A stretch of DNA of 23,122 bases, from positions 1 to 23,122 of IMG/VR virus record IMGVR_UViG_2690316210_000010. One strand, given 5' to 3'. Shown here piece after piece: positions 1-21,545 of the stretch. The notes under the pieces were generated by a model. It was not told where the DNA came from. It saw only the letters and a list, made by a program, of their open reading frames with translations, and ran no database searches. This DNA comes from a virus (lineage: Duplodnaviria > Heunggongvirae > Uroviricota > Caudoviricetes). Numbering within the stretch: position 1 is the first letter of the stretch; each line of letters opens with the position of its first letter. The position numbers and the translations under genes are program-made.

Positions 1-235
1 ATTCAGCATCCCAGGAATCGAGGGCAGGGCGGGGTATACCAGGTTTATCCTCGCAGACAATAAATTTATAAGCGCAGTCCTGAGCAGCCGGATAATGTTC
101 CAGGAATTGCCAGTGAAATTTTGCGCGGGCGCGGCGTTCGTCGCCGGCTTCAATGGCAGTGGCTACAGGTTTAGCGCCTTCTTCTTTTGTTGCCTTTTCG
201 TCCGGAATGGCGGCGCAAATAAAGACTTTACTCAT
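1..235 (-). CDS. Prophage early-left-operon hypothetical protein, 5' portion only (gene runs off the window start); paralog of 8697..9095, possibly YdfE-like by position
   Basis: Minus-strand ATG at 233-235; about 88% nucleotide identity to 8866-9095; encodes the N-terminus MSKVFICAAIPDEQ... by paralogy. Family not recognised. Confidence 0.5.
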   Translation of the reverse strand, partial: MSKVFICAAIPDEKATKEEGAKPVATAIEAGDERRARAKFHWQFLEHYPAAQDCAYKFIVCEDKPGIPRPALDSWDAE

Positions 236-328
236 TTTGTTTTAACCTCATTACAGATTTAAGGGTGAACAAATCCCTGCCATTGCTGGCATATAAAAAT
301 GAAACCGGATATTTATTACGTGGCTGCT

Positions 329-520
329 TTAAAGACCTGCCGGGACTTCTTTATTATCCTGGTGAATGATTTTATCAACCGGATAACAGTTACCGGGAAT
401 TTTCTGTTCAGCTGCAGCAGCCACGCATTCTTTCATGGAGTTGTATACTCCGGTAACCAGTTCAGCTGGTTCGCCCGTATTAAGAATAACGGTCAGAACG
501 AGTGCAAATGCTGTATTCAT
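329..520 (-). CDS. Small membrane/secreted protein immediately downstream of dicB (YdfD-like by position and length, 63 aa)
   Basis: Start chosen at MNTAFALV (ATG 518-520) overlapping the dicB stop in an ATGA motif, AAGGA Shine-Dalgarno upstream; hydrophobic N-terminus; paralog of 9191..9379. Confidence 0.5.
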   Translation of the reverse strand: MNTAFALVLTVILNTGEPAELVTGVYNSMKECVAAAAEQKIPGNCYPVDKIIHQDNKEVPAGL

Positions 521-705
521 CGCCAGCATCCTTTTTGCATCAGACGCAAACGAGCCAGCATTGAAACAATGCATATTTTATTTAATGACTCCCGTTCGTG
601 TTTTCTCTTGTTAATGGCATCTTCAGTAAATACAGGGTTACTGATAGTGACACCAATTTCAAAACAACCTTCAGACGTATTAACGTTTGGTAATAACGTT
701 TCCAT
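517..705 (-). CDS. dicB: Cell division inhibitor DicB (62 aa)
   Basis: Translation METLLPNVNTSEGCFEIGVTISNPVFTEDAINKRK... matches my recollection of E. coli Qin DicB; GAGGA Shine-Dalgarno upstream; sits downstream of a DicF-like sRNA as in the K-12 dicB operon. Confidence 0.8.
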   Translation of the reverse strand: METLLPNVNTSEGCFEIGVTISNPVFTEDAINKRKHERESLNKICIVSMLARLRLMQKGCWR

Positions 706-715
706 TATCGCGTCC

Positions 716-1273
716 TCAACAATGAATTTTGAGTAATTGCTCTACAGTCATATTTTTAATTGCGCCCCGGTTAACAAGAGTCCATCCCTGTTCTTCCAGA
801 TAAAACCGGAAAGTCTCCATGGTACAGACCCGTGCGCCATCAGGAACGGTTTCGGTGAATCTGATGTTGCCGCGTTCGTCGAAGTGAACAACCAGGGTGC
901 GGCCATCGCCTGGAATTATTTTGTCAGTGGGTGGGGTGTTATTCTGGCGCAGTTCGGCCTCCATGCGATCGAACTCAGCAATGTAGGCTTCTTTAAATGC
1001 AGCGGCTTTTTTGCCAGTGAATCCCATCACCAGGAAAACGAAGCCGTTTTTGGTGATTTGGTACATCGGGCGTTTTTCGCCTTTGGCGTCAGTGTAGGTG
1101 ACGTCCTCAAAATTGAGGGCGTTAAATTCAGGTGAGCATTCAGTATTTGCGATGGCACGTAACACATTGTCGTGACGCTTGCCAAAGAACTCTGCGATCG
1201 CAATAGACGTAGTGACAGCGCGACCATTTTCGATGGTTACGTCAGGGTGAGAAAGGGCAGGGATAGTAGCCAT
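716..1273 (-). CDS. Rha-family phage regulatory protein (antirepressor-like)
   Basis: Start set at MATIPALSHPDVTIENGRAVTTSIAIAEFFGKRHDNVLRAI with GAGGA Shine-Dalgarno; this N-terminal motif is typical of Rha/ORF6N proteins. The ORF track extends to 1570 but that extension overlaps the conserved DicF-flanking repeat. Gene is absent at the equivalent position of P2. Confidence 0.65.
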   Translation of the reverse strand: MATIPALSHPDVTIENGRAVTTSIAIAEFFGKRHDNVLRAIANTECSPEFNALNFEDVTYTDAKGEKRPMYQITKNGFVFLVMGFTGKKAAAFKEAYIAEFDRMEAELRQNNTPPTDKIIPGDGRTLVVHFDERGNIRFTETVPDGARVCTMETFRFYLEEQGWTLVNRGAIKNMTVEQLLKIHC

Positions 1274-1512
1274 GATGGCATCCTCGAGTGATAAGTTAAT
1301 TAACTCACCACCGAGGTTTTCCACGACCATAAGGGTGGTGAGACGTACAGGGGTGGAAATACCGGTCACTCGAGAACCCGGCCAGTCTTGCGACTGCCCT
1401 GCACATCCCACCATAATTTGAATGGAGCTGTGCATTACGCATAAAAAAACCGCTTCAGCGCGGCTATGCGCTCGAGTAACGTTCGGGTTTCCACGCCCGG
1501 CACCCGTTTTAT

Positions 1513-1810
1513 AAGGTGCAGGTGCACTATAATTCCACCCGTTCTGGTTTTCAATAGCTACATTCAACATTTTCTCTTTCCTTTCATCACCGAAGTGAAC
1601 TTTGTTGATGCGGTGCCTGGTGCCTCCAGGTGACGTTAACCAGTTAACAATTAACGCCGGATACAGGGAAACCCATAACCACCCGATACGGGGGAACTAA
1701 TCGCTTTTTAACTGTGCCGCGTGCGCTGAGCCGCATTCACCGCATCACAAAATTCACTTTAAAAAGGGCGGACATCAGCCAGCAATTAAACCGATGCCGC
1801 CAACTGGTAC
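1513..1810. repeat. Direct repeat copy 1 (~300 bp: dicF-dicB intergenic region plus DicF-like gene); near-identical to 3599..3895
   Basis: Visible alignment of 1513-1806 with 3599-3890 with only a few mismatches, diverging at the DicF 5' end; a third, more diverged copy lies at 9590-9800. Confidence 0.8.
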
Positions 1811-1816
1811 TTCACA
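1761..1816 (-). ncRNA. DicF-family sRNA variant (P0)
   Basis: Minus-strand sequence ends ...GGCGGCAUCGGUUUAAUUGCUGGCUGAUGUCCGCCCUUUUU, keeping the DicF GGCGG..CCGCC terminator and U-tail, but the 5' and internal sequence differ from canonical DicF. Ends are approximate. Confidence 0.4.
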
Positions 1817-1879
1817 CAGCAATGTCGTTATTTACAACCGGAGGCGCACTCCCACCATTTAAATTTAACAGACAAGACC

Positions 1880-2517
1880 GGTGATGCTGCCAACTTACTG
1901 ATTTAGTGTATGATGGTGTTTTTGAGGTGCTCCAGTGGCTTCTGTTTCTATCAGCTGTCCCTCCTGTTCAGCTACTGACGGGGTGGTGCGTAACGGCAAA
2001 AGCACTGCCGGACATCAGCGCTATCTCTGCTCTCACTGCCGTAAAACATGGCAACTGCAGTTCACTTACACCGCTTCTCAACCCGGTACGCACCAGAAAA
2101 TCATTGATATGGCCATGAATGGCGTTGGATGCCGGGCAACTGCACGCATTATGGGCGTTGGCCTCAACACGATTTTACGTCACTTAAAAAACTCAGGCCG
2201 CAGTCGGTAACCTCGCGCATACAGCCGGGCAGTGACGTCATCGTCTGCGCGGAAATGGACGAACAGTGGGGCTATGTCGGGGCTAAATCGCGCCAGCGCT
2301 GGCTGTTTTACGCGTATGACAGTCTCCGGAAGACGGTTGTTGCGCACGTATTCGGTGAACGCACTATGGCGACGCTGGGGCGTCTTATGAGCCTGCTGTC
2401 ACCCTTTGACGTGGTGATATGGATGACGGATGGCTGGCCGCTGTATGAATCCCGCCTGAAGGGAAAGCTGCACGTAATCAGCAAGCGATATACGCAGCGA
2501 ATTGAGCGGCATAACCT
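1880..2517 (+). mobile_element. IS1, 3'-truncated (left inverted repeat through mid-insB)
   Basis: Begins with the IS1 terminal repeat GGTGATGCTGCCAACTTACTGATTTAGTGTATGATGG; insA and insB recognisable; IS1 sequence stops after ...GAGCGGCATAACCT, where IS3-family sequence takes over. Confidence 0.85.
1935..2210 (+). CDS. insA: IS1 InsA
   Basis: 91-aa translation [42 protein letters not shown]... matches IS1 InsA. Confidence 0.9.
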
Positions 2518-2701
2518 TTTAGGACAATGGGTTACCGCCGCCAGAAAAGGGCTCGGTACTCCTGGTTCCCGCACGGTGGCTGAACTGGAATCTGAAATTC
2601 TGCAACTGCGTAAGGCGTTAAATGAAGCTCGCCTTGAGCGAGATATATTAAAAAAAGCAACAGCGTATTTTGCACAGGAGTCGCTGAAAAATACGCGTTA
2701 A
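2129..2701 (+). pseudogene. insB: Chimeric ORF: IS1 InsB (first ~129 aa) fused in frame to the C-terminal ~60 aa of an IS3-family OrfA
   Basis: Translation follows InsB up to ...[14 protein letters not shown], then continues [60 protein letters not shown], a typical IS3-family OrfA C-terminus. Confidence 0.75.
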
Positions 2702-3598
2702 TCGAACAATGGCGACAACAATTTCCCATTGAAGCGATGTGTCAGGTATTTGGTGTATCCAGGAGCGGTTATTACAACTGGGTACAGCATGAACCCTCAG
2801 ACAGAAAACAAAGTGATGAGCGGCTAAAACTGGAGATTAAGGTGGCACATATCCGCACTCGCGAAACATATGGAACCCGGCGGCTCCAGACGGAGCTGGC
2901 AGAGAATGGCATCATCGTTGGTCGTGACCGACTGGCACGTCTTCGTAAGGAGCTAAGGCTACGCTGTAAGCAGAAACGCAAGTTCAGAGCGACTACGAAC
3001 TCGAACCACAATCTGCCAGTTGCGCCAAATCTGCTGAACCAGACGTTCGCTCCTACAGCACCAAATCAGGTCTGGGTGGCGGACCTGACGTATGTTGCCA
3101 CACAGGAGGGATGGTTGTACCTCGCTGGCATCAAAGATGTTTATACGTGCGAAATTGTCGGCTACGCCATGGGAGAGCGCATGACAAAAGAGCTGACAGG
3201 TAAAGCCCTGTTTATGGCGCTCAGGAGCCAGCGCCCACCTGCCGGGCTAATCCACCACTCTGATCGAGGTTCACAGTACTGCGCATACGATTACCGGGTC
3301 ATACAGGAGCAGTCTGGTCTGAAAACATCAATGTCGCGTAAAGGTAACTGTTACGACAACGCTCCGATGGAAAGCTTCTGGGGAACGCTGAAAAATGAGA
3401 GCCTGAGCCACTATCGTTTTAATAACCGGGATGAAGCCATCTCAGTAATACGGGAATACATTGAGATTTTCTACAATCGTCAGCGTCGTCACTCTCGTCT
3501 GGGGAATATCTCCCCGGCAGCCTTCAGGGAAAAATATCATCAGATGGCTGCTTAAAAAAAGAACAAATGGTAGTGTCCGCTATTGCCAGTACACCTCA
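2518..3598 (+). mobile_element. IS3-family element (IS600/IS911-like), 5'-truncated, right end intact
   Basis: OrfA C-terminus, A-run slippery motif near 2647-2656, OrfB in the -1 frame, and a right end ...GTACACCTCA consistent with an IS3-family terminal CA. Exact IS name not verified. Confidence 0.7.
2737..3555 (+). CDS. IS3-family transposase OrfB (DDE catalytic domain); coordinates are the first in-frame ATG, natively expressed by -1 frameshift from OrfA
   Basis: 272-aa translation with DDE-transposase hallmarks (...WVADLTYV..., ...HHSDRGSQYCA..., ...CYDNAPMESFWGTLK...). Confidence 0.8.
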   Translation: MCQVFGVSRSGYYNWVQHEPSDRKQSDERLKLEIKVAHIRTRETYGTRRLQTELAENGIIVGRDRLARLRKELRLRCKQKRKFRATTNSNHNLPVAPNLLNQTFAPTAPNQVWVADLTYVATQEGWLYLAGIKDVYTCEIVGYAMGERMTKELTGKALFMALRSQRPPAGLIHHSDRGSQYCAYDYRVIQEQSGLKTSMSRKGNCYDNAPMESFWGTLKNESLSHYRFNNRDEAISVIREYIEIFYNRQRRHSRLGNISPAAFREKYHQMAA

Positions 3599-3895
3599 AA
3601 GGTGCAGGTGCACTATAATTCCACCCGTTCTGGTTTTCAATAGCTACATTCAACATTTTCTCTTTCCTTTCATCACCGAAGTGAACTTTGTTGATGCGGT
3701 GCCTGGTGCCTCCAGGTGACGTTAACCAGTTAACAATTAACGCCGGATACAGGGAAACCCATAACCACCCGATACGGGGGAACTAATCGCTTTTTAACTG
3801 TGCCGCGTGCGCTGAGCCGCATTCACCGCATCACAAAATTCACTTTAAAAAGGGCGGACATCAGCCAGCAATGAAACTGATGCCGCCAAAGGTAC
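3599..3895. repeat. Direct repeat copy 2 (dicF-dicB intergenic region plus DicF-like gene), abutting the IS3-family right end
   Basis: Aligns with 1513-1810; starts immediately after the IS3-family terminus. Confidence 0.8.
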
Positions 3896-5062: not shown

Positions 5063-5353
5063 TTAACTGTTTTTGCCTGGATACTGTCTTCGAGAATGCA
5101 CAATATTTACTACTTCTATGCTTGATGCTGTTACTCGGTAAAGGATGATGTAGTTAGGATGAGTTACAATTTCACGAAGACCAAGAACTCGCTCGCTTGG
5201 AGGATACAGGTAAGGATGCTCTGTGAGCGGCAAAACGGATGTTTCAATTCGAATTTTCATTCTGCGTGCTGCCGCGGGATTTTCTTTAGCTATGTAGGCT
5301 ACGATCTGGCGCAAATCATCACGAGCAGATGGTAGCCATAAAACGGGTAACAT
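5063..5353 (-). CDS. ParE/RelE-superfamily type II toxin
   Basis: 96-aa translation MLPVLWLPSARDDLRQIVAYIAKENPAAARRMKIRIE...YIILYRVTASSIEVVNIVHSRRQYP fits the ParE pattern; start overlaps the upstream antitoxin stop (TAATG). Confidence 0.7.
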   Translation of the reverse strand: MLPVLWLPSARDDLRQIVAYIAKENPAAARRMKIRIETSVLPLTEHPYLYPPSERVLGLREIVTHPNYIILYRVTASSIEVVNIVHSRRQYPGKNS

Positions 5354-5547
5354 TATTCACCTCTGTGAGTTGCAGCAGCAATTTGGGCAATAATTTGTTC
5401 CATTTCCGCCATTACCTCATCATGCGGAATCGCCGGGCGGGGATCCGCGAGGCTTGCTGCTACTTTGGCCCGCAGCCATTCGTTGTAACTATTTTCTTGC
5501 TCAACTGTCTCAAATTCTGAAACCATTGGGGAAAGGACTGTACTCAT
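5353..5547 (-). CDS. Type II antitoxin (ParD/CC2985-like) paired with the ParE-like toxin
   Basis: 64-aa acidic protein ...YNEWLRAKVAASLADPRPAIPHDEVMAEMEQII...; AGGAG Shine-Dalgarno; translationally coupled upstream of the toxin. Confidence 0.55.
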   Translation of the reverse strand: MSTVLSPMVSEFETVEQENSYNEWLRAKVAASLADPRPAIPHDEVMAEMEQIIAQIAAATHRGE

Positions 5548-6178: not shown

Positions 6179-6442
6179 ATGAATCTTGGAGAATATTTGC
6201 ATCATTTTCATATAACCCAGAGTTCATTTGCTGAGATTGTTGGCGCATCCCAAGGGATGGTCAGCCACGTTATAACGGGGCGTGCAAAACTTACAGGAGA
6301 AAAAATATTACGTTGGTGTGAAGCAACGGGATGGGTGGTGACCCCACATGAGATTGACAGTAAAACCTACCCCAACCCAACTGACGGCTTGCCTGCTGAG
6401 TTTCAGGCTAACACACAACCATCGGCGGGGGTTGATTCATGA
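6179..6442 (+). CDS. Cro/YdaS-like HTH regulator
   Basis: MNLGEYLHHFHITQSSFAEIVGASQGMVSHVITGRAKLTGEKILRWCEATGW...; divergent from the repressor; stop overlaps the next gene start. Confidence 0.6.
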   Translation: MNLGEYLHHFHITQSSFAEIVGASQGMVSHVITGRAKLTGEKILRWCEATGWVVTPHEIDSKTYPNPTDGLPAEFQANTQPSAGVDS

Positions 6443-6864
6443 AAATCAAGCATGAACACATCCGCATGGCGATGAAAGCCTGGGCGCATCCGGACGGTGA
6501 AAAAGTTCCGGCAGCTGAAATAACCAGGGTTTATTTCGAACTGGGAATGACGTTTCCGGTTCTGCATAACGACAGCAAGCACAACACGCTTTATCTCAAC
6601 ACCCAAAAGATTTTCCGTTGGCTGGATAAAGACACCCCTGACGCTGTTGAAAAAATTCAGGCGTTGTTACCTGCGATCGAAAGGGCAATGCCACCTCCGC
6701 TGGTGGCTCGAATGCGCAGCCACAGTTCAGCTTATTTTCGGGAACTGGTGGAGACGCATGAACGACTGGTGAGAGACGCTGATGATTTTGTCGCAGTGGC
6801 AATCGCCGGTTTCAATCAGATGAACCGTGGTGGCCCGGCAGGAAATGCTGTGGCAGTACATTGA
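6439..6864 (+). CDS. YdaT-like protein (141 aa)
   Basis: MKIKHEHIRMAMKAWAHPDGEK...; position after the Cro/YdaS-like gene and length match Rac YdaT; paralog at 11990..12415. Confidence 0.6.
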   Translation: MKIKHEHIRMAMKAWAHPDGEKVPAAEITRVYFELGMTFPVLHNDSKHNTLYLNTQKIFRWLDKDTPDAVEKIQALLPAIERAMPPPLVARMRSHSSAYFRELVETHERLVRDADDFVAVAIAGFNQMNRGGPAGNAVAVH

Positions 6865-6935
6865 CTGACAATAGCCATATCGAATCGCTCCCGGCAACTC
6901 GTGAGTAAAAAGATTCGGTATCAGAAGAGGTGAGT

Positions 6936-7976
6936 ATGGCTAACGCCTGGCTCAGATTATGGCATGACATGCCAAATGACCCTAAGTGGCGAACAATTGC
7001 CAGGGTGTCAGGGCAGCCAATTGCAACAGTGATGGCAGTGTATATCCACCTCCTGGTGAGCGCGTCACGAAATGTCACGCGAGGTCACATTGATGTCACG
7101 ACAGAAGATTTGGCAAGTGCGCTCGACGTGACAGAAGAGGTAATTGATTCAATTTTGCAGACGATGCAGGGGCGGGTACTTGATGGTGATTTAATCACTG
7201 GATGGGAAAAACGCCAGGTGCTTAAAGAGGACAACGGCAATATTTCGCAAACCGCAAAATCTCCTGCAGAGCGCAAGAGGGCGCAGCGAGAGAGGGAAAG
7301 AAAGCGGGAACAAAATGGCGATTGTCACGGCGCGTCACGAAATGTCACGCACATGTCACGACGAGTCACGACAGATACAGATAAAGATACAGATAAAGAA
7401 GATCAAAACACTATGGTCCATGGCGTAAAAAACGCCACGAACCAGGCAGGGGATGTTCAGACCGTCAATCCTGGTCAGCCAGCAGGCTCGACACCGGAAG
7501 CCGATTCGGGCGCTGTGCAGCAGGTGATGACCGCAAGGCCGGAGCAATCACTCCAACTGCAGCAGCCTGAAGCCGATTCCGCCATTCAGCGGGAAGCCGA
7601 TCGGGTAGCCCCGGAAAACACCGGGCAGCCTGTGGGACGAGTGGATTATCCGGATGTGTTCGAACAGGTCTGGCGGGAATACCCGTTGCGTGCCGGGGCA
7701 AACCCGAAGAAATCCGCATTCAGTGCCTGGAAGGCCAGATTGCGCGAGGGGGTGCCACCAGAGACCATGCTGGATGGTGTGAGGCGTTACGCGAGATACC
7801 TGGCGGCGACCGGGAAAGCGGGAACGGAATTTGTTCAGCGAGCGACGACGTTTTTTGGGCCGGACCGGAATTTTGAAAACCCCTGGTTGCTCCCGGTAAG
7901 CGGCACGAACAACCAGCGTTGTGTGAATCATATTTCTGAACCGGATACCGAAATTCCGCCGGGATTCAGGGGGTGA
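6936..7976 (+). CDS. Replication initiator (lambda O / YdaU-like) with embedded origin iterons
   Basis: ATG 6936 with GAGG Shine-Dalgarno; precedes the DnaC-like gene; contains GTCACG iteron arrays; C-terminal 20 aa identical to the otherwise unrelated P2 initiator. Confidence 0.6.
   Translation: MANAWLRLWHDMPNDPKWRTIARVSGQPIATVMAVYIHLLVSASRNVTRGHIDVTTEDLASALDVTEEVIDSILQTMQGRVLDGDLITGWEKRQVLKEDNGNISQTAKSPAERKRAQRERERKREQNGDCHGASRNVTHMSRRVTTDTDKDTDKEDQNTMVHGVKNATNQAGDVQTVNPGQPAGSTPEADSGAVQQVMTARPEQSLQLQQPEADSAIQREADRVAPENTGQPVGRVDYPDVFEQVWREYPLRAGANPKKSAFSAWKARLREGVPPETMLDGVRRYARYLAATGKAGTEFVQRATTFFGPDRNFENPWLLPVSGTNNQRCVNHISEPDTEIPPGFRG
7061..7099. repeat. Iteron set 1: four GTCAC(G) repeats at 10-11-bp phasing inside the O-like gene
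   Basis: GTCAC at 7064, 7074, 7084 and 7095. Confidence 0.6.
7324..7410. repeat. Iteron set 2: five GTCACG repeats at 10-11-bp phasing followed by an AT-rich tract; putative replication origin
   Basis: GTCACG at 7324, 7334, 7344, 7355 and 7365, then ATACAGATAAAGATACAGATAAAGAAGATCAAAACA. Confidence 0.6.
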
Positions 7977-7982
7977 TGTGGC

Positions 7983-8729
7983 ATGAAAAACATTGCGGCA
8001 GCCGGGGTTCTTGAACGTATTCACAGACTTGCACCACAGGGGGCGGTTCCACCGTACCGGACGGTGGAGGAGTGGCGGGAATGGCAACTTGCTGAAGGAC
8101 GAAAACGCAGCGAGGAGATTAACCGCCAGAATCGCCAGTTGCGGGTGGAAAAAATCCTGAATCGTTCGGGCATCCAGCCTCTGCACAGCAAATGCTCGTT
8201 TGCGAATTATCAGGTGCAGAACGACGGGCAAAAATACGCGCTGAGCCAGGCCAAATCCATAGCTGACGAACTGATGACCGGGTGCACGAATTTTGTGTTC
8301 AGCGGTAAAACCGGCACCGGGAAAAATCACCTTGCAGCGGCGATGGGTAACTGGCTGATGGCGAAGGGGCGCAGCGTGATTATCGTCACCGTGTCTGATG
8401 TCATGAGCGTGTTGCATGACAGCTACGACAACGGCAAATCCGGTGAAAAATTTTTACAGGAGCTTTGCGGGGTTGATTTGCTGGTCCTGGATGAAATAGG
8501 CATTCAGCGGGAGACGAAAAACGAGCAGGTGGTATTGCACCAGATAATTGATCGCCGGACAGCATCACTGTGCAGTGTCGGGATGTTAACAAACCTGAAT
8601 CATGCCGCAATGAGTACGCTTCTTGGTGAGAGGATTATGGACCGCATGACCATGAACGGTGGTCGATGGGTGACGTTTAACTGGGATAGCTGGCGTTCAA
8701 ATGTCAGCTTTCCGGGAGTTGTGAAGTAA
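7983..8729 (+). CDS. DnaC-like AAA+ helicase loader (YdaV-like, 248 aa)
   Basis: Walker A FSGKTGTGKNHLAAAMG and Walker B DLLVLDEIG; about 97% identical at protein level to 13407..14153. Confidence 0.8.
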   Translation: MKNIAAAGVLERIHRLAPQGAVPPYRTVEEWREWQLAEGRKRSEEINRQNRQLRVEKILNRSGIQPLHSKCSFANYQVQNDGQKYALSQAKSIADELMTGCTNFVFSGKTGTGKNHLAAAMGNWLMAKGRSVIIVTVSDVMSVLHDSYDNGKSGEKFLQELCGVDLLVLDEIGIQRETKNEQVVLHQIIDRRTASLCSVGMLTNLNHAAMSTLLGERIMDRMTMNGGRWVTFNWDSWRSNVSFPGVVK

Positions 8730-9095
8730 TTTTTGTTGAACCATGACAGCGTTCTGTACTTCAGGGGCCAGCTTGTCAAAAGTGACGTTCATCGGATCTG
8801 ATTCAGTCTCAACCGGGACAAAGGAAGCAGACTCCTCATCCCAGCGGTTTTCCTGCATATATTCAGCATCCCAGGAATCGAGGGCAGGGCGGGGTATACC
8901 GGGTTTATCCTCGCAAACAAGAAATTTATAAGCGCAGTCCTGAGCTGCAGGGAATTGCTCCAGAAATTGCCAATGAAATTTTGCGCGTGCGCGACGCTCA
9001 TCACCGGCTTCAATGGCAGTGGCCACCGCAACAGCGCTATCTTCTTTTATGGCCTGTTCATCAGGAATAGCAGCGCAAATAAAGACCTTACTCAT
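8697..9095 (-). CDS. Prophage early-left-operon hypothetical protein (132 aa), possibly YdfE-like by position; 3' end overlaps the P1 DnaC-like gene
   Basis: Minus-strand ORF MSKVFICAAIPDEQAIKEDSAVAVATAIEAGDERRARAKFHWQFLEQFPAAQD...; last ~11 codons lie antisense inside the DnaC-like 3' end, so the C-terminus may be junction-derived. Confidence 0.5.
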   Translation of the reverse strand: MSKVFICAAIPDEQAIKEDSAVAVATAIEAGDERRARAKFHWQFLEQFPAAQDCAYKFLVCEDKPGIPRPALDSWDAEYMQENRWDEESASFVPVETESDPMNVTFDKLAPEVQNAVMVQQKLLHNSRKADI

Positions 9096-9190
9096 TTTGT
9101 TTTAACCTCATTACAGATTTCAGGGTGAACGAATCCCTGCCATTGCTGGCATTTTTAATCCGTTGGTATGGTGTTAATATGGCTGGAAGG

Positions 9191-9379
9191 TTATCCAGCC
9201 GGTGTTTCGTTATTCAGGTACAGCGATACTTTTTTTAGCGGGAGGCATTCACCAGAAATTTTTTGCTCGTCTCTTGCCTGGAGGCAGGATTCTTTACTTG
9301 CATAAATTCCGGTAATCACATTCTGTGATTCACCCGTTATAAGAAAAACCGTCATCATCAGTGCAAATGCTGAAGTCAT
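9191..9379 (-). CDS. Small membrane protein downstream of dicB (YdfD-like)
   Basis: MTSAFALMMTVFLITGESQNVITGIYASKESCLQARDEQKISGECLP...; start overlaps the dicB-like stop (ATGA); paralog of 329..520. Confidence 0.5.
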   Translation of the reverse strand: MTSAFALMMTVFLITGESQNVITGIYASKESCLQARDEQKISGECLPLKKVSLYLNNETPAG

Positions 9380-9564
9380 TGACGTTCTCCGAAAATACCA
9401 AGTTCAAGAAGAGCAATTCGGGAAAGTATGGAATTATCATTGAGCAGATAAGGCTCATATTTCCTCATATTAATGGCATCTTCAGTAAACTCCCGGTTAC
9501 TGAGCAGAACACCAATATCAAAACAACCTTCAGACGTATTAACGTTTGGTAATAACGTTTCCAT
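9376..9564 (-). CDS. dicB: DicB-like cell division inhibitor with a divergent C-terminal half
   Basis: N-terminal 35 aa METLLPNVNTSEGCFDIGVLLSNREFTEDAINMRK resemble DicB; the C-terminal half differs from the P0 copy. Confidence 0.65.
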   Translation of the reverse strand: METLLPNVNTSEGCFDIGVLLSNREFTEDAINMRKYEPYLLNDNSILSRIALLELGIFGERQ

Positions 9565-9742
9565 TATCGCGTCCTCAACAATGAATTTTGTGATGCAGTG
9601 CCTGGTGCCTCCAGGTGACGTTAACCAGTTAACAATTAACGCCGGGTTAGTTGATGCTCGTTACGCCCGTAAAATACCGCCTTACTGCTTTAACTGTTCC
9701 GCGTGCGCATAGCCGCATTCACCGCATCACAAAATTCACTTT

Positions 9743-9800
9743 AAAAAGGGCGGCAGAGCAGTCACGGAGTAAAACTGATACCGCCAAATGTCACCAGAAA
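9743..9800 (-). ncRNA. dicF: DicF sRNA (canonical-type)
   Basis: Minus strand reads UUUCUGGUGACAUUUGGCGGUAUCAGUUUUACUCCGUGACUGCUCUGCCGCCCUUUUU, matching my recollection of E. coli DicF apart from about one base; located between the ydfA-like/variable genes and dicB as in Qin. Confidence 0.8.
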
Positions 9801-10135
9801 ATTGATAACAGAGGGCGTTGTAGCGGGGTTGTCACTTAAGCGTATGGTCAACCTGACAACCCGGTGCATTTTCTGGAGCAATGGAGGAAACCCCAGCCAT
9901 ACTTACCGCCGCGCCATTTCGCGGAGTGCCACAACCGGAAGCGCACGGTCGAACTAAATTTAACGACACCGTACAGAGAGACCAATTTCGCCGTGCGCTT
10001 TCGCGTTATGCCCTGACTTTTCAGGGACATATCCTTTCAGTAAGCTGTCAGTGCCGGATGCTCACCCGTGTCCGGCGCACGCACTCCACCTGACCCGTGG
10101 AGAACTCCTTAATTACCAACCCTCAGGAGGGTGAA

Positions 10136-10414
10136 ATGGATAAAAAGCAAATTGAGGCCCTGCAATCTATTATTGAAGAACAAGATGAAGCTATCAGGAT
10201 TCTTTCATATCGCACTGATATGATACTAAATATGCTTTCTGCATTAACGGCTGCGCTTGGTGGTACAAAAACAAACGTATACCGCGAAGTTGTTATTCAA
10301 CAGATAGATAAATTTGAAAAAACCATACCAGGTATTAATGCTCATCTTGCAGAACAAGAGAAAGACCATGCTCTTATGGCAATTTCTTCAGTAGCTCTCC
10401 CGAAAGTTGAGTAG
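10136..10414 (+). CDS. Hypothetical protein (92 aa) in the P2 variable cassette, antisense to the dicB operon
   Basis: ATG 10136 with AGGAGG Shine-Dalgarno; MDKKQIEALQSIIEEQDEAIRILSYRTD...; unrelated to the P1 gene at 4088..4288; 3' end overlaps the convergent gene by 41 nt. Confidence 0.4.
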   Translation: MDKKQIEALQSIIEEQDEAIRILSYRTDMILNMLSALTAALGGTKTNVYREVVIQQIDKFEKTIPGINAHLAEQEKDHALMAISSVALPKVE

Positions 10415-10787
10415 TTTTAATTGTTGTTTTGAAATAATCACTGCTTTCACATTTGAGTGATTTCATGGCAATCCAAATGCGGGCCTCTGTGCCTGCATTT
10501 GGTTCCAGTTGCTGTAGACGTTTTGCGTCTTCCAAAAGTAAGGCGATAATGTGTTTCAGCTTCTCATCATTTGCTTGATTCTTGTTTTCAGGCGAATTCT
10601 GTCCGCCGAATAGGCGCTTCTCTTCATACAGACCTATAAAGGCACGACGCACGTTACCGGATATAGTATCGATGGTTTCCTTTTCTACGGTACTCAGGTC
10701 AAGAGTCGCCAGTTGAGAGCGAACCACATTCGATGCCATTTCCTGGAATGGTACTGGTAAATCTTTAAATTCCATCGTCAACCTCAT
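10374..10787 (-). CDS. Hypothetical protein (137 aa), P2 variable-cassette gene coupled to the ydfA-like gene
   Basis: Shares only MRLTMEFKDLP with the P1 gene 4257..4634, then diverges completely; start overlaps the upstream stop. Confidence 0.5.
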   Translation of the reverse strand: MRLTMEFKDLPVPFQEMASNVVRSQLATLDLSTVEKETIDTISGNVRRAFIGLYEEKRLFGGQNSPENKNQANDEKLKHIIALLLEDAKRLQQLEPNAGTEARIWIAMKSLKCESSDYFKTTIKTTQLSGELLKKLP

Positions 10788-10939
10788 CAGTCAGTGTTTC
10801 TGGTTAACCAGCGACGCGCGCCAGCTTCAGTTTTAAACGTTTTGCTTCTGGTATACGTCATCGCGGTGAACGTACCGTCCTGGTTGGGGAACACGCCACA
10901 TACCAGAGATTCGCTGTTGCCAAGATCGATAGTATCCAT
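10787..10939 (-). CDS. YdfA/YdaF-like small protein
   Basis: MDTIDLGNSESLVCGVFPNQDGTFTAMTYTRSKTFKTEAGARRWLTRNTD; near-identical to 4634..4786. Confidence 0.6.
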   Translation of the reverse strand: MDTIDLGNSESLVCGVFPNQDGTFTAMTYTRSKTFKTEAGARRWLTRNTD

Positions 10940-11124
10940 GCTGACCTCATTTCCCCTTAACGCCGGGGTAGCGGAACAAAAACCTGCTGCATAGTTATTA
11001 AAGTTGAACCCTGCCGTCATGTTCTTACGCCTCGGGCTGGCTACTTAACCCCTGACCACTGCCTGGTAACTCGAAGTATTGCCCTGCATTCTGTGGGGCG
11101 GGGTGGGTTGGTATGAAAAGAAGG

Positions 11125-11167
11125 ATACCCATAGGTATTTAAAAAGTAAATACCCATGGGTAAATTT
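11125..11167. promoter_or_regulatory. OL-like operators with candidate leftward early promoter (P2)
   Basis: Palindromes ATACCCATAGGTAT (11125-11138) and TACCCATGGGTA (11151-11162); on the minus strand a TTTACC / 16-17 bp / TTAAAT promoter-like arrangement overlaps them. Confidence 0.45.
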
Positions 11168-11204
11168 TTGCGGTGTCTTAACTGGTGACTAGTTGTTTGG
11201 TGAG

Positions 11205-11624
11205 CTATGATGCGTTTTGTGCTTTCTTTTTACGGATTTCTTCGTAGATCATATTGTAATACTGTTTTTTCTCTTCAAGAGTTTTTAATAATTTATCCGC
11301 TTCACTTTCTGGCAGTTCGTCTAAGAGATCTAAAAAAATACGTTGTCGTGGCGTTAGAACCCTTGTTTCATAACTGGAGGCTGTGTTCGTTGATGATGAA
11401 ACGATACCATCCATCCATCCCCGGGGTAACCCAAAGGACTCTTCGATAATCTCCACCATATCATCAGCGATCCGTTTTTTTCCCTTTTTCCCCTCTGGGT
11501 ACAACATTCTTGATACATAAGAAGGCTCGCGCCCGATCTTTCTGGCCACGTTAACCGCTTTACCATCGCATTTCTCATCACGAATTTTGATGAGTTGCTG
11601 TCGTCTAAATTCATATTTGTCCAT
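11205..11624 (-). CDS. HTH repressor of the P2 immunity region (RacR/DicA-like position)
   Basis: Start chosen at MDKYEFRRQQLIKIRDEKCDGKAVNVARKIGREPSYVSRML... (HTH); divergent from the Cro-like gene; flanked by operator-like repeats. Confidence 0.6.
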   Translation of the reverse strand: MDKYEFRRQQLIKIRDEKCDGKAVNVARKIGREPSYVSRMLYPEGKKGKKRIADDMVEIIEESFGLPRGWMDGIVSSSTNTASSYETRVLTPRQRIFLDLLDELPESEADKLLKTLEEKKQYYNMIYEEIRKKKAQNAS

Positions 11625-11701
11625 AGGTAAATAATAGATGCGATTACCGCAAGGTAAACAACCTGTGGGTATTGACATTTGTTTACCTGTGGGTATTCTT
11701 T
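11623..11701. promoter_or_regulatory. OR-like operators and candidate rightward promoter for the P2 Cro-like gene
   Basis: Repeated TGGGTA-containing half-sites (ACCTGTGGGTAT twice, CATAGGTAAAT); -35 TTGACA (11673-11678), 16-bp spacer, -10 TATTCT (11695-11700). Confidence 0.45.
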
Positions 11702-11724
11702 GCTGTGTTTACTAAGGAGTAGCT

Positions 11725-12006
11725 ATGGAAGAATTAAGAATATTTCTCAATTCTCTTTCGTCAGATGAACAGCGTATGTTTGCATGCGAGTGTGGTACCA
11801 GCATCGGTTATCTAAGAAAGGCATTGAGTAAAGGTCAAGTGTTAGGGGCATCGTTATGTGTCCTTATTGAGCGAGCCAGTAATGGTGAAGTTACACGTCA
11901 GCAACTAAGGCCTTTTGATTGGATGAATATTTGGCCCGAGCTGGAAGATACCAAAACGTTAACACAACCACTTTCTAGGAGCTTGATTCATGAAAATCAA
12001 GCATGA
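11725..12006 (+). CDS. Cro/YdaS-like HTH regulator (P2)
   Basis: AAGGAG Shine-Dalgarno; ...ECGTSIGYLRKALSKGQ...TRQQLRPFDW...; 3' end overlaps the YdaT-like start. Confidence 0.6.
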   Translation: MEELRIFLNSLSSDEQRMFACECGTSIGYLRKALSKGQVLGASLCVLIERASNGEVTRQQLRPFDWMNIWPELEDTKTLTQPLSRSLIHENQA

Positions 12007-12415
12007 ACACATCCGCATGGCGATGAATGCCTGGGCGCGTCCTGATGGCGAAAAAGTTCCAGCAGCTGGAATAACCCAGGCTTATTTTGAGTTGGGTATG
12101 ACGTTCCCAGAACTGTATGACGACAGCCATCCGGAAGCCCTGGCTCGCAATACCCAGAAAATTTTCCGCTGGGTAGAGAAAGACACCCCTGATGCTGTTG
12201 AAAAAATGCAGGCTCTGTTACCGGCGATCGAAAAGGCGATGCCGCCTTTGCTGGTGGCCCGTATGCGCAGCCACAGTTCTGAATATTACCGTGAGATCGT
12301 CGAACGGAGGGATCGGCTGGTGAAGGATGTCGATGATTTTGTTGCGTCAGCGGTTGTTTTGTATGACCAGATGAATCGCGGCGGCCCGGCAGGGAATGCT
12401 GTGGTGATGCACTAA
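11990..12415 (+). CDS. YdaT-like protein (141 aa, P2)
   Basis: MKIKHEHIRMAMNAWARPDGEK...; paralog of 6439..6864. Confidence 0.6.
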   Translation: MKIKHEHIRMAMNAWARPDGEKVPAAGITQAYFELGMTFPELYDDSHPEALARNTQKIFRWVEKDTPDAVEKMQALLPAIEKAMPPLLVARMRSHSSEYYREIVERRDRLVKDVDDFVASAVVLYDQMNRGGPAGNAVVMH

Positions 12416-12437
12416 AAGCACGGTGTTCGGGGGTTTT

Positions 12438-13400
12438 ATGAGCAGCAAGCTTCATGGTCTTGTCTGGGAAGGGTGCGCCTTCACCGGCATGATCTTATCC
12501 AGGGTGGCGGTTATGGCCCGTCTTGCAGACTACAGCAATGACGAGGGCGTGTCATGGCCTGCCATTGAAACTATCCGGCGTCAGATCGGTGCAAGAAGTG
12601 AATCCACAGTGAAATCGGCTATTGCAGAACTGGCGAAAGAGGGCTGGCTGACGAAGGAAGAGCGTAAGGTCGGTGGGCGTAATGTAAGCAATATCTATCG
12701 GCTTAATGTGGAAAAACTCGAAGCAGCTGCGGCGGCGGCGCGTGAGTCATATAAACCGAAAAGAAAAATTAGCCCGGCAAAAAATGACCCGTTAACAGTT
12801 GACCCGTCAAATATTGACCCCTCAACGGTTGACCCGTCAAATTTTGATGGATCAACTGTTGATAAAAAACTGCCGATTAGGGGGGCGATGATTGACCCCG
12901 ATCCGTCAGTATTAAAACCTGATCCGTCAGATAAAAGATCTTCTTGTCCGGACGCTTCGCAACCGGACCCGCAGACGGCTGAACAGGATTTTTTAACCCG
13001 ACACCCTGACGCGGTTGTGTTCAGTGCGAAAAAACGCCAGTGGGGAAGTCAGGAAGATTTGGTGTGCGCACAGTGGATCTGGGGACGAATCGTGAGTCTT
13101 TACGAGCAGGCGGCCAGCTATGATGGCGAGATCACTAGACCGAAAGAACCCAACTGGACAGCATGGGCCAATGACGTTCGCACAATGCGGATGCTGGATG
13201 GCAGAACTCACAGACAAATTTGTGAAATGTTTGGGCGTCTCCAGCGGGATTCGTTCTGGGTAAAAAACATCATGAGTCCGGCAAAACTCCGGGAAAAATG
13301 GGATGAACTGGTTATCCGCCTGGGGCGTTCGCCTGCGCAGCGTTGCGTGAATCACATTTCTGAACCGGACACTGAAATACCGCCGGGATTCAGGGGGTGA
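12438..13400 (+). CDS. Replication initiator (lambda O-like) with an N-terminal winged-helix domain and embedded iterons
   Basis: ATG 12438; N-terminal HTH-like region (...VSWPAIETIRRQIGARSESTVKSAIAELAKEGWL...); TTGACCCGTCAA iterons in a linker; last 20 aa identical to the P1 initiator. Confidence 0.6.
   Translation: MSSKLHGLVWEGCAFTGMILSRVAVMARLADYSNDEGVSWPAIETIRRQIGARSESTVKSAIAELAKEGWLTKEERKVGGRNVSNIYRLNVEKLEAAAAAARESYKPKRKISPAKNDPLTVDPSNIDPSTVDPSNFDGSTVDKKLPIRGAMIDPDPSVLKPDPSDKRSSCPDASQPDPQTAEQDFLTRHPDAVVFSAKKRQWGSQEDLVCAQWIWGRIVSLYEQAASYDGEITRPKEPNWTAWANDVRTMRMLDGRTHRQICEMFGRLQRDSFWVKNIMSPAKLREKWDELVIRLGRSPAQRCVNHISEPDTEIPPGFRG
12783..12860. repeat. Origin iterons: four to five TTGACCCGTCAA-like repeats at 15-bp spacing inside the P2 O-like gene
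   Basis: TGACCCGTTAAC (12783), TTGACCCGTCAA (12798), TTGACCCCTCAA (12813), TTGACCCGTCAA (12828), then a degenerate TTGATGGATCAA. Confidence 0.6.
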
Positions 13401-13406
13401 CGTGTC

Positions 13407-14153
13407 ATGAAAAACATTGCGGCAGTTGGGGTTCTTGAACGTATTCGCAGACTTGCACCACAGGGGTCGGTTCCACCGTACCGGACGGTGGAGGAGTGGC
13501 GGGAATGGCAACTTGCTGAAGGACGAAAACGCAGCGAGGAGATTAACCGCCAGAATCGCCAGTTGCGGGTGGAAAAAATCCTGAATCGTTCGGGCATCCA
13601 GCCTCTGCACAGCAAATGCTCGTTTGCAAATTATCAGGTGCAGAACGACGGGCAAAAATACGCGCTGAGCCAGGCCAAATCCATAGCTGACGAACTGATG
13701 ACCGGGTGCACGAATTTTGTGTTCAGCGGTAAAACCGGCACCGGGAAAAATCACCTTGCAGCGGCGATGGGCAACCGGCTGATGGTGAAGGGGCGCAGCG
13801 TGATTATCGTCACCGTGTCTGACGTCATGAGCGTGTTGCATGACAGCTACGACAACGGCAAATCCGGTGAAAAATTTTTACAGGAGCTTTGCGGGGTTGA
13901 TTTGCTGGTCCTGGATGAAATAGGCGTTCAGCGGGAGACGAAAAACGAGCAGGTGGTATTGCACCAGATAATTGATCGCCGGACAGCATCACTGTGCAGT
14001 GTCGGGATGTTAACAAACCTGAATCATGCCGCAATGAGTACGCTTCTTGGTGAGAGGATTATGGACCGCATGACCATGAACGGTGGTCGATGGGTGACGT
14101 TTAACTGGGATAGCTGGCGTCCAAATGTCAGCAATATGAGGGTTGTGAAGTAA
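13407..14153 (+). CDS. DnaC-like AAA+ helicase loader (YdaV-like, P2)
   Basis: Walker A and B motifs; near-identical to 7983..8729. Confidence 0.8.
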   Translation: MKNIAAVGVLERIRRLAPQGSVPPYRTVEEWREWQLAEGRKRSEEINRQNRQLRVEKILNRSGIQPLHSKCSFANYQVQNDGQKYALSQAKSIADELMTGCTNFVFSGKTGTGKNHLAAAMGNRLMVKGRSVIIVTVSDVMSVLHDSYDNGKSGEKFLQELCGVDLLVLDEIGVQRETKNEQVVLHQIIDRRTASLCSVGMLTNLNHAAMSTLLGERIMDRMTMNGGRWVTFNWDSWRPNVSNMRVVK

Positions 14154-15539: not shown

Positions 15540-16226
15540 ATGACCCCAATAAAAATATTTATGACTATTGCTGATTTCAAACGGCCTAAATTGGAGCTCC
15601 CAAACGGGGCAAACAAACTACTACTGCACTCTTGCTGTGCTCCATGTTCCGGTGAAGTGATGGAGGCGCTTCAGGCCTCGGGAATCGACTACACCATCTT
15701 TTTCTACAACCCGAACATTCATCCTCAGAAAGAGTATTTAATTCGTAAGGATGAAAATATTCGCTTTGCTGAACAACACGGCGTGCCGTTTATCGATGCT
15801 GATTACGACACCGACAACTGGTTTGAACGTGCCAAAGGAATGGAATGGGAGCCTGAGAGGGGGATCCGTTGTACCATGTGTTTTGACATGCGTTTTGAGC
15901 GGACAGCGTTGTACGCTGCTGAAAATGGTTTCAGTGTGATCAGCAGTTCACTGGGCATTTCACGCTGGAAAAATATGCAGCAGGTTAACGACTGTGGGCG
16001 GCGAGCCGTCGCGCATTATCCGGGCATGGTGTACTGGGATTATAACTGGCGCAAGCAGGGCGGCTCGTCCCGTATGATTGAAATCAGCAAGCGCGAAAAA
16101 TTCTATCAGCAGGAATATTGTGGCTGTGTGTATTCTCTGCGCGATACCAATCTACACCGCAAATCTCAGGGACGCCCTCTTATCAAAATTGGTCAACTCC
16201 ACTACGGTAAAGAAGAGAAGGAGTGA
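15540..16226 (+). CDS. QueH-like protein (DUF208, epoxyqueuosine reductase family)
   Basis: N-terminal [11 protein letters not shown] motif plus further conserved Cys/His/Asp residues resemble DUF208/QueH; no obvious Shine-Dalgarno, so start is uncertain. Confidence 0.55.
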
Positions 16227-16453
16227 TTTTATGGGGCACCTTTCTGATTGATTTCATATTGGCGAGGTAAGTAGAATGACTGCGGGTGCTTGAGGCTATC
16301 TGCTTCAGGCATGAACACCAAAAGGCAGATAGAGAAAAGCCCCAGTTAACATTACGCGTCCGGCAAGACGCTTAACATTAATCTGAGGCCAATTTCATGC
16401 TTTGCACATGTAGGTTAGCCTCTTACATGCCGAAAGGCAAGGAGAAGCAGGCT

Positions 16454-16609
16454 ATGAAGCAGCAAAAGGCGATGTTAATCGCCCTGATCGTCATCTGTTT
16501 AACCGTCATAGTGACGGCACTGGTAACGAGGAAAGACCTCTGTGAGGTACGAATCCGAACCGGCCAGACGGAGGTCGCTGTCTTCGTAGACTACGAATCC
16601 AGGAAGTAA
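16454..16609 (+). CDS. hokD: Hok-family type I toxin (HokD/RelF-like); overlapping upstream Mok-like frame begins at 16397
   Basis: MKQQKAMLIALIVICLTVIVTALVTRKDLCEVRIRTGQTEVAVF... matches Hok/RelF; GGAG Shine-Dalgarno. Confidence 0.75.
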   Translation: MKQQKAMLIALIVICLTVIVTALVTRKDLCEVRIRTGQTEVAVFVDYESRK

Positions 16610-17146: not shown

Positions 17147-17184
17147 ACTCCTGCTGTGTAACACCGTGCCACCGGAGAAAGCCG

Positions 17185-17784: not shown

Positions 17785-18074
17785 TGGTGGATTTACGTAA
17801 AGCGGCGCGGGGGCAGATGTGCACCGTCAGAATTCCTGGCTACTGCAATCACGATCCGGAAACGTCTGTGCTGGCGCATTACCGACTGGCGGGAACGTGC
17901 GGAACAGCGATAAAGCCACACGATATGCAGGCAGCGATTGCCTGTAGCTCGTGCCACGATTTAATCGACGGGCGGGTAAAAACCAGCGATTACACCAAAG
18001 AAGAATTACGCCTGATGCATGCAGAAGGTGTTTTTCGCACACAAGAAATCTGGAGAAAGGAGGGATATTTATGA
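17784..18074 (+). CDS. YbcO-like (DUF1364) zinc-binding protein, copy A
   Basis: 96 aa with four paired Cys (C..C...C..C) and position before Q as in DLP12 ybcO; identical in copies B and C. Confidence 0.55.
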
Positions 18075-19322: not shown

Positions 19323-19364
19323 ACGGGCTGAACACCCATTCTACTGCGCCAGCGGAGAACTACG

Positions 19365-21492: not shown

Positions 21493-21503
21493 GGGCAAAT
21501 CCA
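20473..21503 (+). mobile_element. IS2, 5'-truncated, second copy
   Basis: Same structure and right end as 18293..19322. Confidence 0.85.
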
Positions 21504-21545
21504 ACGGGCTGAACACCCATTCTACTGCGCCAGCGGAGAACTACG

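What the first reader, a model, noticed from the sequence alone, without database searches (positions are those of the whole stretch)
8697..8740. Junction between P1 and P2: the P2 left-end gene overlaps the P1 DnaC-like 3' end convergently
The P1 replication module ends at 8729, and the next paralogous segment begins with a minus-strand gene whose last ~11 codons lie inside the DnaC-like coding sequence. After the P2 DnaC-like gene, different genes follow. The site is a novel joint between two prophage segments, and the hypothetical protein's C-terminus may be junction-derived.
Basis: inference. Interest (0 to 1): 0.45.

Follow-up and report, generated by a model that had tools for sequence, protein, structure and literature searches.

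The report
Probable assembly false join between prophages
The overlap is real in the deposited sequence, but it is most likely a false join in a short-read draft of Shigella sonnei that glues the end of one prophage's replication genes to the first 119 codons of another prophage's exonuclease gene, so it is probably not biology.

Summary
The DnaC-like gene (7983-8729, +) and a 132-codon minus-strand ORF (8697-9095) overlap by 33 nt. The breakpoint is blunt, at 8738|8739, 9 nt past the dnaC stop. The ORF is codons 1-119 of an 823-aa lambdoid exonuclease plus 13 junction-derived codons; the catalytic domain is missing.

The window is a whole contig (CXAQ01000120.1) of a draft Shigella sonnei assembly. 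The joint occurs nowhere else. In a closed relative, P1 (Qin-locus remnant) and P2 (ompW prophage) lie about 368 kb apart in opposite orientation.

The same assembly still holds both unbroken parental sequences: P1 dnaC running into DUF1627 (contig 175), and a full-length exonuclease gene.

Three further points fit an artefact:
- The P2 side starts within 1 nt of the edge of an exact repeat, where short-read contigs end.
- The P1 dnaC copy carries a patch of P2 alleles.
- The contig has other joints unique to it, one on a 10-nt chance overlap, which is GapFiller's default merge rule.

Best reading: a scaffolding or gap-closure false join (about 0.78). A genuine strain-specific illegitimate joint is not excluded (about 0.17). 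Low interest either way.

The parts
6936..7976 (+). P1 replisome-organizer (O-like) gene, 346 aa
   Evidence: the identical protein is on 11 contigs, including a second contig (CXAQ01000175.1) of the same assembly; its accessions are CSN76887.1 and CSN78863.1.
7983..8729 (+). P1 DnaC-like helicase-loader gene, 248 aa, full length
   Evidence: IstB_IS21 E = 6.8e-19; this exact protein is on 1 contig only, whereas the canonical S. sonnei P1 version is on 31 contigs.
8615..8666 (.). Patch of P2-type alleles (8615 T, 8661 G, 8666 A) inside P1 dnaC, flanked by P1 alleles at 8502 and 8697-8737
   Evidence: four relatives (L006, L008, L009, L014) and contig 175 of the same assembly have C, T, G here; the window's P2 copy has T, G, A.
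8730..8738 (.). Last 9 nt of P1 sequence (spacer after dnaC, TTTTTGTTG). The native continuation GAGGATG... into DUF1627 is absent
   Evidence: L006, L008, L009, L011 and L014 all continue GAGGATGTTTTAATGG.
8738..8739 (.). Blunt breakpoint between P1 and P2, with no microhomology, no IS end and no N
   Evidence: Junction 28-mer and 23-mer: 0 hits in the genome, metagenome and viral collections.
8697..9095 (-). Chimeric 132-codon ORF. 8739-9095 = codons 1-119 of the P2 exonuclease gene; 8700-8738 = 13 junction-derived codons (3 from the spacer, 10 antisense to the dnaC end); 8697-8699 = stop
   Evidence: residues 1-119 are identical to the 823-aa P0031; the catalytic Rv2179c-like domain (aa 642-813) is not included; the protein is on 1 contig only.
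8740..8900 (.). Near-exact repeat (identical runs of 56 and 101 nt) shared by the P2 exo gene and the IS600-truncated exo remnant of P1. Its left edge is 1 nt from the breakpoint
   Evidence: In CP180280.1 (L006) the IS600 right end abuts CCATGACAG at the homologous position.
9191..9564 (-). P2 DUF1482 and dicB genes, native neighbours of the exo gene
   Evidence: same gene order as in ompW prophages that have a full-length exo.

Best explanation
The joint at 8738|8739 is most likely a false join made when this short-read draft (Shigella sonnei, GCA_001261215.1, contig 120) was scaffolded and its gaps were closed. Two prophages that share near-identical stretches were strung together: a Qin-locus remnant (P1) and the ompW prophage (P2). 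The left arm is P1 dnaC, rebuilt from a mixture of P1 and P2 reads. The right arm is a contig that ends where P2's exo gene starts to share exact sequence with P1's IS600-truncated exo remnant. The 132-codon ORF and its 33-nt overlap with dnaC then follow automatically: a 5' gene fragment read on into foreign sequence until the first stop.

Shown: the anatomy, the uniqueness of the joint, both parental sequences in the same assembly, the allele mosaic, the repeat edge, and other false-closure-type joints in the same contig. Inferred: that software rather than the cell made the joint, and which software it was.
For: 1. The window is a complete 23,122-bp contig of a draft assembly. Contigs are numbered by size and carry single-N gaps. 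This matches the Sanger Velvet/SSPACE/GapFiller pipeline, whose authors say these greedy tools can make false joins and which was applied to 299 S. sonnei assemblies (PMC5320598).
2. The joint is unique. No place in 5,426 complete E. coli genomes or 50,697 phage records spans it. Exact-junction scans found nothing. The chimeric ORF product is on 1 contig among 153 billion gene positions.
3. Both parental sequences are in the same assembly. Contig 175 runs from P1 dnaC across 8738 into DUF1627 without an N at that point. The full-length 823-aa exo has accession CSN77150.1, which lies between CSN76887.1 (contig 120) and CSN78863.1 (contig 175).
4. In the closed relative CP180280.1, P1 (99.94% identical) and P2 (99.3%) are about 368 kb apart and inverted. 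There exo is intact, and dnaC is followed by DUF1627.
5. The two copies of P1 dnaC in this assembly differ at four sites. At each site one copy carries the P2 allele (window at 8615, 8661, 8666; contig 175 at 8204). Four relatives have the P1 allele at all four.
6. Contig 175's left part stops at 8347, one base before a P1/P2 SNP. GapFiller is described as stalling where alternatives are equally supported.
7. The right arm begins 1 nt from the edge of a 56+101-nt exact repeat; chance is about 3/2472. The contig's own left end lies exactly 40 nt before the first paralog-distinguishing base, as expected of a de Bruijn contig end with k = 41.
8. The same contig has other joints unique to it. IS1 nt 638 is fused to IS600 nt 184. 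A DUF1133|IS2-internal joint, present twice in a 3x tandem repeat, sits on an exactly 10-nt chance identity. That equals GapFiller's default merge overlap (PMC3446322).
Against: - No reads were available, so nothing is shown at read level.
- The joint has neither an N nor a 10-nt overlap, so it does not fit GapFiller's published closure rule. I cannot name the step that produced a blunt N-free joint; the same is true of the IS1|IS600 joint.
- Nothing in a de Bruijn graph links the dnaC end to exo, so some read-pair or chimeric-read evidence must have existed.
- I did not confirm that this assembly was made with the Sanger pipeline.
- Having 6432-8347 on two contigs could instead mean a real second copy of that module.
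- The same-assembly origin of the full-length exo rests on accession order, not on seeing the contig.
Confidence: 0.78

Rival explanations
1. A genuine, strain-specific illegitimate (non-homologous) recombination joint. A duplicated copy of the P1 ydaT-O-dnaC module became fused to a duplicated, 5'-truncated copy of the ompW prophage early region. This would give a tandem hybrid prophage and a dead exonuclease fragment that overlaps dnaC.
For: - The sequence is clean, with no N and no ambiguous bases at the joint.
- The blunt joint is not what GapFiller's 10-nt rule produces.
- The 6432-8347 segment is on two contigs of the assembly, which could reflect a real two-copy module.
- The P2-allele patch in dnaC could be a short gene-conversion tract.
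- Shigella genomes are rich in IS elements and rearrangements (own knowledge).
Against: - Both parental sequences persist in the same assembly. A simple deletion, inversion or translocation is therefore excluded, and two extra duplications are needed.
- P1 and P2 are about 368 kb apart and inverted in the closed relative.
- None of the 5 related contigs with P1-type dnaC that read past its end has the joint; a sixth (L010) switches to P2-type sequence inside dnaC instead.
- The breakpoint coincides with a repeat edge, which has no biological reason.
- Other joints unique to this contig lie within the same 23 kb.
Confidence: 0.17
2. A real IS-mediated rearrangement whose IS copy (for example IS600) sits between dnaC and the truncated exo in the genome but was dropped by the assembler.
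For: In relatives, P1's own exo remnant is cut by IS600 within 1-2 nt of the homologous position. The site could therefore be an IS600 hot spot. IS copies are routinely lost or collapsed in short-read drafts.
Against: - No IS end, target-site duplication or N is at the joint.
- Base 8739 (A) is exo-type, not the IS600 end (C).
- No relative has an IS after P1 dnaC.
- It still needs duplications to explain the parental sequences present in the same assembly.
Confidence: 0.04

Closest known systems
False joins from greedy scaffolding and gap closure (SSPACE/GapFiller) in short-read bacterial drafts (Page et al. 2016, PMC5320598; Boetzer & Pirovano 2012, PMC3446322)
   Same: The joint is unique to one draft. 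The arms end at repeat edges or paralog SNPs. Sequence is redundant between contigs of one assembly. Single-N gaps are present. A neighbouring joint was merged on exactly 10 nt, which is the default rule.
   Different: The joint at 8738|8739 is blunt, with no 10-nt overlap and no N. The exact software step is not identified, and use of this pipeline for this assembly is inferred.
Truncated lambdoid-prophage exonuclease fragments (YdfE_N-only), such as the IS600-cut exo remnant at the left end of P1 in CP180280.1. K-12 Qin ydfE is, from my own knowledge, a similar N-terminal fragment
   Same: An N-terminal part of the same exonuclease family without the C-terminal 3'-5' exonuclease domain, sitting next to DUF1482 and dicB.
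   Different: Those are bounded by an IS end. This one abuts the 3' flank of a dnaC-like gene with nothing in between.
Recombination between co-resident lambdoid prophages that gives hybrid prophages
   Same: Two lambdoid prophages with 96% identical dnaC and partly identical exo, dicB and ydaT segments. One other draft (L010, GCA_053881415.1) switches from P1 to P2 inside dnaC.
   Different: Such exchanges occur inside shared sequence and keep gene order. This joint is non-homologous and places a replication gene against the middle of an early-left gene.

Membership tests
Lambdoid prophage exonuclease (YdfE_N + YdfE_C + Rv2179c-like 3'-5' exonuclease, about 823 aa) | N-terminal YdfE_N region | tested here: met
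   Residues 1-119 are identical to the 823-aa P0031. Precomputed Pfam PF27430 YdfE_N is recorded on the 132-aa product. The local hmmscan gave no family.
Lambdoid prophage exonuclease (YdfE_N + YdfE_C + Rv2179c-like 3'-5' exonuclease, about 823 aa) | C-terminal catalytic Rv2179c-like / RNase_T exonuclease domain | tested here: not met
   The domain lies at aa 642-813 of the full-length protein. The ORF keeps only aa 1-119. It is a fragment, not a functional member.
DnaC/IstB-like AAA+ helicase loader of lambdoid prophages | IstB_IS21 / DnaA-type ATPase domain, full length, directly after the O-like gene | tested here: met
   PF01695 E = 6.8e-19, 248 aa, as in relatives. The junction leaves the CDS intact.
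Assembly false join | Joint absent from all independent assemblies of related genomes | tested here: met
Assembly false join | Both unbroken parental sequences present in the same assembly | tested here: met
   Contig 175 carries dnaC into DUF1627. The full-length exo CSN77150.1 lies between the accessions of contigs 120 and 175; that second part is by accession order, not by sequence.
Assembly false join | Arms end at repeat edges, with paralog-mixed consensus next to the joint | tested here: met
   The right arm starts 1 nt from a 56+101-nt exact repeat. A P2-allele patch lies at 8615-8666. A repeat edge on the left arm (8738) is not shown.
Assembly false join | No read pairs or split reads support the joint | not testable with these tools
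   Raw reads were not available.
Biological recombinant joint between adjacent (tandem) prophages | The two prophages are neighbours in the same orientation in related genomes | tested here: not met
   In CP180280.1 they are about 368 kb apart and inverted.
Biological recombinant joint between adjacent (tandem) prophages | Parental junctions lost in the rearranged genome | tested here: not met
   Both are present in the same assembly.
Biological recombinant joint between adjacent (tandem) prophages | Homology, microhomology or a mobile-element end at the breakpoint | tested here: not met
   Blunt: TTTTTGTTG|AACCATGAC, with no shared base and no IS end.

The most novel reading that the evidence does not exclude
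The joint is real. This S. sonnei isolate would then carry a tandem hybrid prophage in which a duplicated Qin-locus replication module was fused by non-homologous end joining to a duplicated ompW-prophage early region. The result would be a truncated exonuclease whose transcript runs antisense into the dnaC 3' end.
Probability: 0.17. Interest if true: 0.25.

Novelty: not a real feature. Interest (0 to 1): 0.08.

Why it matters
As biology it matters little. Even if real, it would be one strain-specific prophage scar that leaves a dead gene fragment.

Its value is as a warning. This contig is in GenBank and RefSeq, and two of its junction-made proteins have their own WP_ or UniRef entries: WP_052974337.1, the 132-aa 'exonuclease family protein', and WP_052974336.1, the mosaic DnaC. 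Prophage, IS and pan-genome surveys that take such drafts at face value will count spurious tandem prophages, gene fusions and singleton proteins.

Tried and rejected
- **Same joint elsewhere.** megablast of 8200-9300 against complete E. coli genomes and phage records found no place spanning the joint. Exact 28-mer and 23-mer scans of the genome, metagenome and viral collections gave 0 hits.
- **Unusual dnaC tail.** I suspected that the FPGVVK tail was junction damage. Rejected: it is native to S. sonnei P1, although absent from E. coli.
- **Homologous recombination.** Rejected: there is no shared sequence at the breakpoint.
- **Simple 368-kb inversion.** It would give the right orientation, but it is rejected because both parental sequences persist.
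- **IS-mediated joint.** No IS end or target duplication is present.
- **GapFiller 10-nt merge at this joint.** Not present here, although it is present at the DUF1133|IS2 joints.
- **Contig carrying the full-length exo.** I could not retrieve it, because the look-up reads only the longest contigs.
- **Literature.** A search for run ERR317003 found nothing.
- **Promoter and terminator scan.** Nothing at the joint.
- **Pfam scan of the 132-aa ORF.** No family in the local copy.

Full report
**Observation.** The window has a 248-codon DnaC-like gene at 7983-8729 (+) and a 132-codon ORF at 8697-9095 (-). They converge and overlap by 33 nt. The DnaC-like identity is confirmed by Pfam (IstB_IS21, E = 6.8e-19). 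A paralogous early and replication region follows at about 8739-14153. Its dnaC copy is 96% identical and is followed by DUF1627, DUF977 and QueH genes.

**Where the break is.** Homology of the left side to P1-type dnaC loci ends at 8738. Homology of the right side to a large exonuclease gene starts at 8739.
- The junction reads TAA TTTTTGTTG | AACCATGACAG.
- Native P1 continues GAGGATGTTTTAATGG into a DUF1627 gene.
- The native exonuclease gene has ...GTCGAACTT before AACCATG.
- No base is shared across the joint, and there is no IS end and no N.

The break is therefore 9 nt after the dnaC stop, not inside dnaC.

**What the minus-strand ORF is.** Its residues 1-119 are identical to residues 1-119 of an 823-aa lambdoid exonuclease (P0031). 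That protein's catalytic Rv2179c-like 3'-5' exonuclease domain lies at residues 642-813 and is absent here. The last 13 residues (QQKLLHNSRKADI) are read from the 9-nt spacer and the antisense of the last 10 dnaC codons. A frame staying open for 13 codons after a truncation is what chance gives (about 0.54). The overlap needs no special explanation once the joint exists.

**Provenance.** The window is the entire contig CXAQ01000120.1 (23,122 bp) of the draft assembly GCA_001261215.1. Its proteins are labelled Shigella sonnei.

**P1 and P2 in relatives.** P2 is the ompW-integrated lambdoid prophage. In relatives the order is ompW, int, xis, the 823-aa exo, DUF1482, dicB and onward. P1 is a prophage remnant at the Qin locus, between ydfI-like and ynfF/dmsA-like genes. 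Its own exo remnant is cut by IS600.

In the closed chromosome CP180280.1, P1 is 99.94% identical to the window and P2 is 99.3% identical. In that genome:
- They lie about 368 kb apart (about 2,240,980 and about 1,873,348) in opposite orientation.
- exo is full length.
- P1 dnaC runs into DUF1627.

**Uniqueness.** No place in 5,426 complete E. coli genomes or 50,697 phage records spans the joint. Exact junction words are absent from the genome, metagenome and viral collections. The 132-aa product occurs on one contig among 153 billion gene positions. None of the five related contigs with P1-type dnaC that read past its end (L006, L008, L009, L011, L014) has the joint; a sixth, L010, switches to P2-type sequence inside dnaC instead.

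**Both parental sequences are in the same assembly.**
- Contig CXAQ01000175.1 of the same assembly carries ydaT, O, dnaC, DUF1627(241 aa) and onward. It reads straight across position 8738 into GAGGATG, and its only N is about 300 nt upstream.
- The O protein has two accessions from this assembly: CSN76887.1 (contig 120) and CSN78863.1 (contig 175).
- The full-length exo protein carries CSN77150.1, which lies between them. An intact exo gene, identical in its first 119 codons, is therefore in the same assembly.

A simple deletion, inversion or translocation would have destroyed these sequences. A real joint would need extra duplications of both segments.

**Signs of consensus-walking through paralogs.**
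- The window's P1 dnaC carries P2 alleles at 8615, 8661 and 8666, between P1 alleles at 8502 and 8697-8737.
- Contig 175 has the canonical P1 alleles at those three sites but the P2 allele at 8204.
- Four relatives have P1 alleles at all four sites.
- The canonical P1 DnaC is on 31 contigs; the window's version is on one.
- Contig 175's left part stops at 8347, one base before a P1/P2 SNP. It is followed by a single N, with 94 nt missing.

GapFiller is described as stalling in repeats where alternatives are equally supported (PMC3446322).

**Repeat edges.** From 8740 onward, P2's exo gene and P1's IS600-cut exo remnant are identical for 56 nt and then for 101 nt. The right arm of the joint starts at 8739, 1 nt from that edge. 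By chance this is about 3 in 2,472. The contig's own left end lies exactly 40 nt before the first base that distinguishes it from P2, as expected of a de Bruijn contig end with k = 41. Short-read contigs end at such points.

**Other joints unique to the same contig.**
- At 2517|2518, IS1 nt 638 is fused bluntly to IS600 nt 184. Neither is an element end. The block is flanked by a 291-nt duplication that relatives lack, and the fusion protein is unique to this contig.
- At 17168-22663 there is a 3x tandem repeat of a DUF1367-YbcO-DUF1133' unit plus the right 1,045 nt of IS2.
- Both DUF1133|IS2 joints sit on an exactly 10-nt chance identity, TCTGAACTTG, between the phage gene and IS2 nt 302-311. 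Ten nucleotides is GapFiller's default minimum overlap for merging two extension arms.
- The truncated DUF1133 product is also unique to this contig.

The Sanger pipeline paper reports 120 GapFiller iterations and joins accepted on as few as five read pairs. It also reports contigs sorted by size, 299 S. sonnei assemblies, and a warning that these greedy tools can make false joins (PMC5320598). That this assembly came from that pipeline is my inference. It rests on the accession series, the size-ordered numbering and the single-N gaps.

**Verdict.** The most likely account is a scaffolding or gap-closure false join (0.78).

The weak points are:
- No reads were available.
- The joint is blunt, without the 10-nt overlap or an N that GapFiller's rule predicts.
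- I cannot say what evidence linked the two arms.

A genuine illegitimate joint with accompanying duplications remains possible (0.17). An IS-mediated joint with the IS dropped is unlikely (0.04), because base 8739 is exo-type rather than the IS600 end and there is no trace of an IS.

Either way the 132-codon ORF is a dead 5' fragment of an exonuclease gene, and the overlap with dnaC is incidental. Read mapping, PCR across the joint or a long-read assembly would settle it.

Noticed in passing
window 1811-3598, with repeats 1513-1803 and 3599-3889: A block made of 69 nt of another lambdoid variant, IS1 nt 1-638 and IS600 nt 184-1264. It is flanked by a 291-nt direct duplication of P1 sequence. 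Relatives have one copy and no IS here. The IS1|IS600 fusion protein (148 aa, CSN76861.1) exists only on this contig. This is probably another false closure.
   Followed up: partly
window 17168-22663: A three-fold tandem repeat (period 2180/2181) of DUF1367-YbcO-truncated DUF1133 plus the right 1,045 nt of IS2. Both DUF1133|IS2 joints lie on an exactly 10-nt chance identity (TCTGAACTTG), which equals GapFiller's default merge overlap. The third unit has the intact DUF1133 gene. The units differ by 12-25 mismatches, so they come from paralogous prophages.
   Followed up: partly
L011 (CXAQ01000175.1) 1-1916, equal to window 6432-8347: The same assembly holds this 1.9-kb ydaT-O-dnaC segment twice, with one mismatch at a P1/P2-variable site. 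In contig 175 it is followed by a single N, 94 nt are missing, and the dnaC ORF is shortened to 216 aa.
   Followed up: yes
window 1-1879: The left end of the contig is not the P1 copy seen in relatives. It differs at 634, 636 and 675, and from 1787 it diverges into a sequence known from E. coli prophages, then meets IS1. It may be a third paralogous prophage fragment in this isolate. No related contig shows this arrangement.
   Followed up: partly
L010 (GCA_053881415.1, ACBQIN010000154.1): Another draft switches from P1 to P2 sequence inside dnaC (all 14 mismatches lie between 8204 and 8717) and continues into P2's DUF1627 and QueH. This is either a real homologous hybrid prophage or a repeat-induced assembly switch.
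   Followed up: no
L006 5031 (CP180280.1), homologous to window 8740: P1's own exonuclease remnant is cut by the right end of IS600 within 1-2 nt of the position where the window's P2 copy is cut. This is explained here as the edge of the shared repeat, but an IS600 target hot spot is not excluded.
   Followed up: partly
window 9748-9799 (-), 16284-16459 (+), 1331-1418 (-), 1443-1519 (-): Known small RNAs at Rfam gathering score: DicF next to dicB in P2, sok next to hok, and C4 antisense RNA plus isrK upstream of the Rha/Ash-like gene.
   Followed up: no
window 5063-5547 (-) and 15540-16226 (+): P1 carries a PaaA2/ParE toxin-antitoxin pair next to its repressor. P2 carries a QueH (epoxyqueuosine reductase) gene after DUF977.
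   Followed up: no
L036 (GCA_001259615.1, CXDS01000125.1) about 9330: Another S. sonnei draft whose accession has the same CX-type prefix joins P1's exo remnant, through a single N, to a 90% paralog of dicB, DUF1482 and exo. This suggests the same locus is often mis-scaffolded.
   Followed up: no
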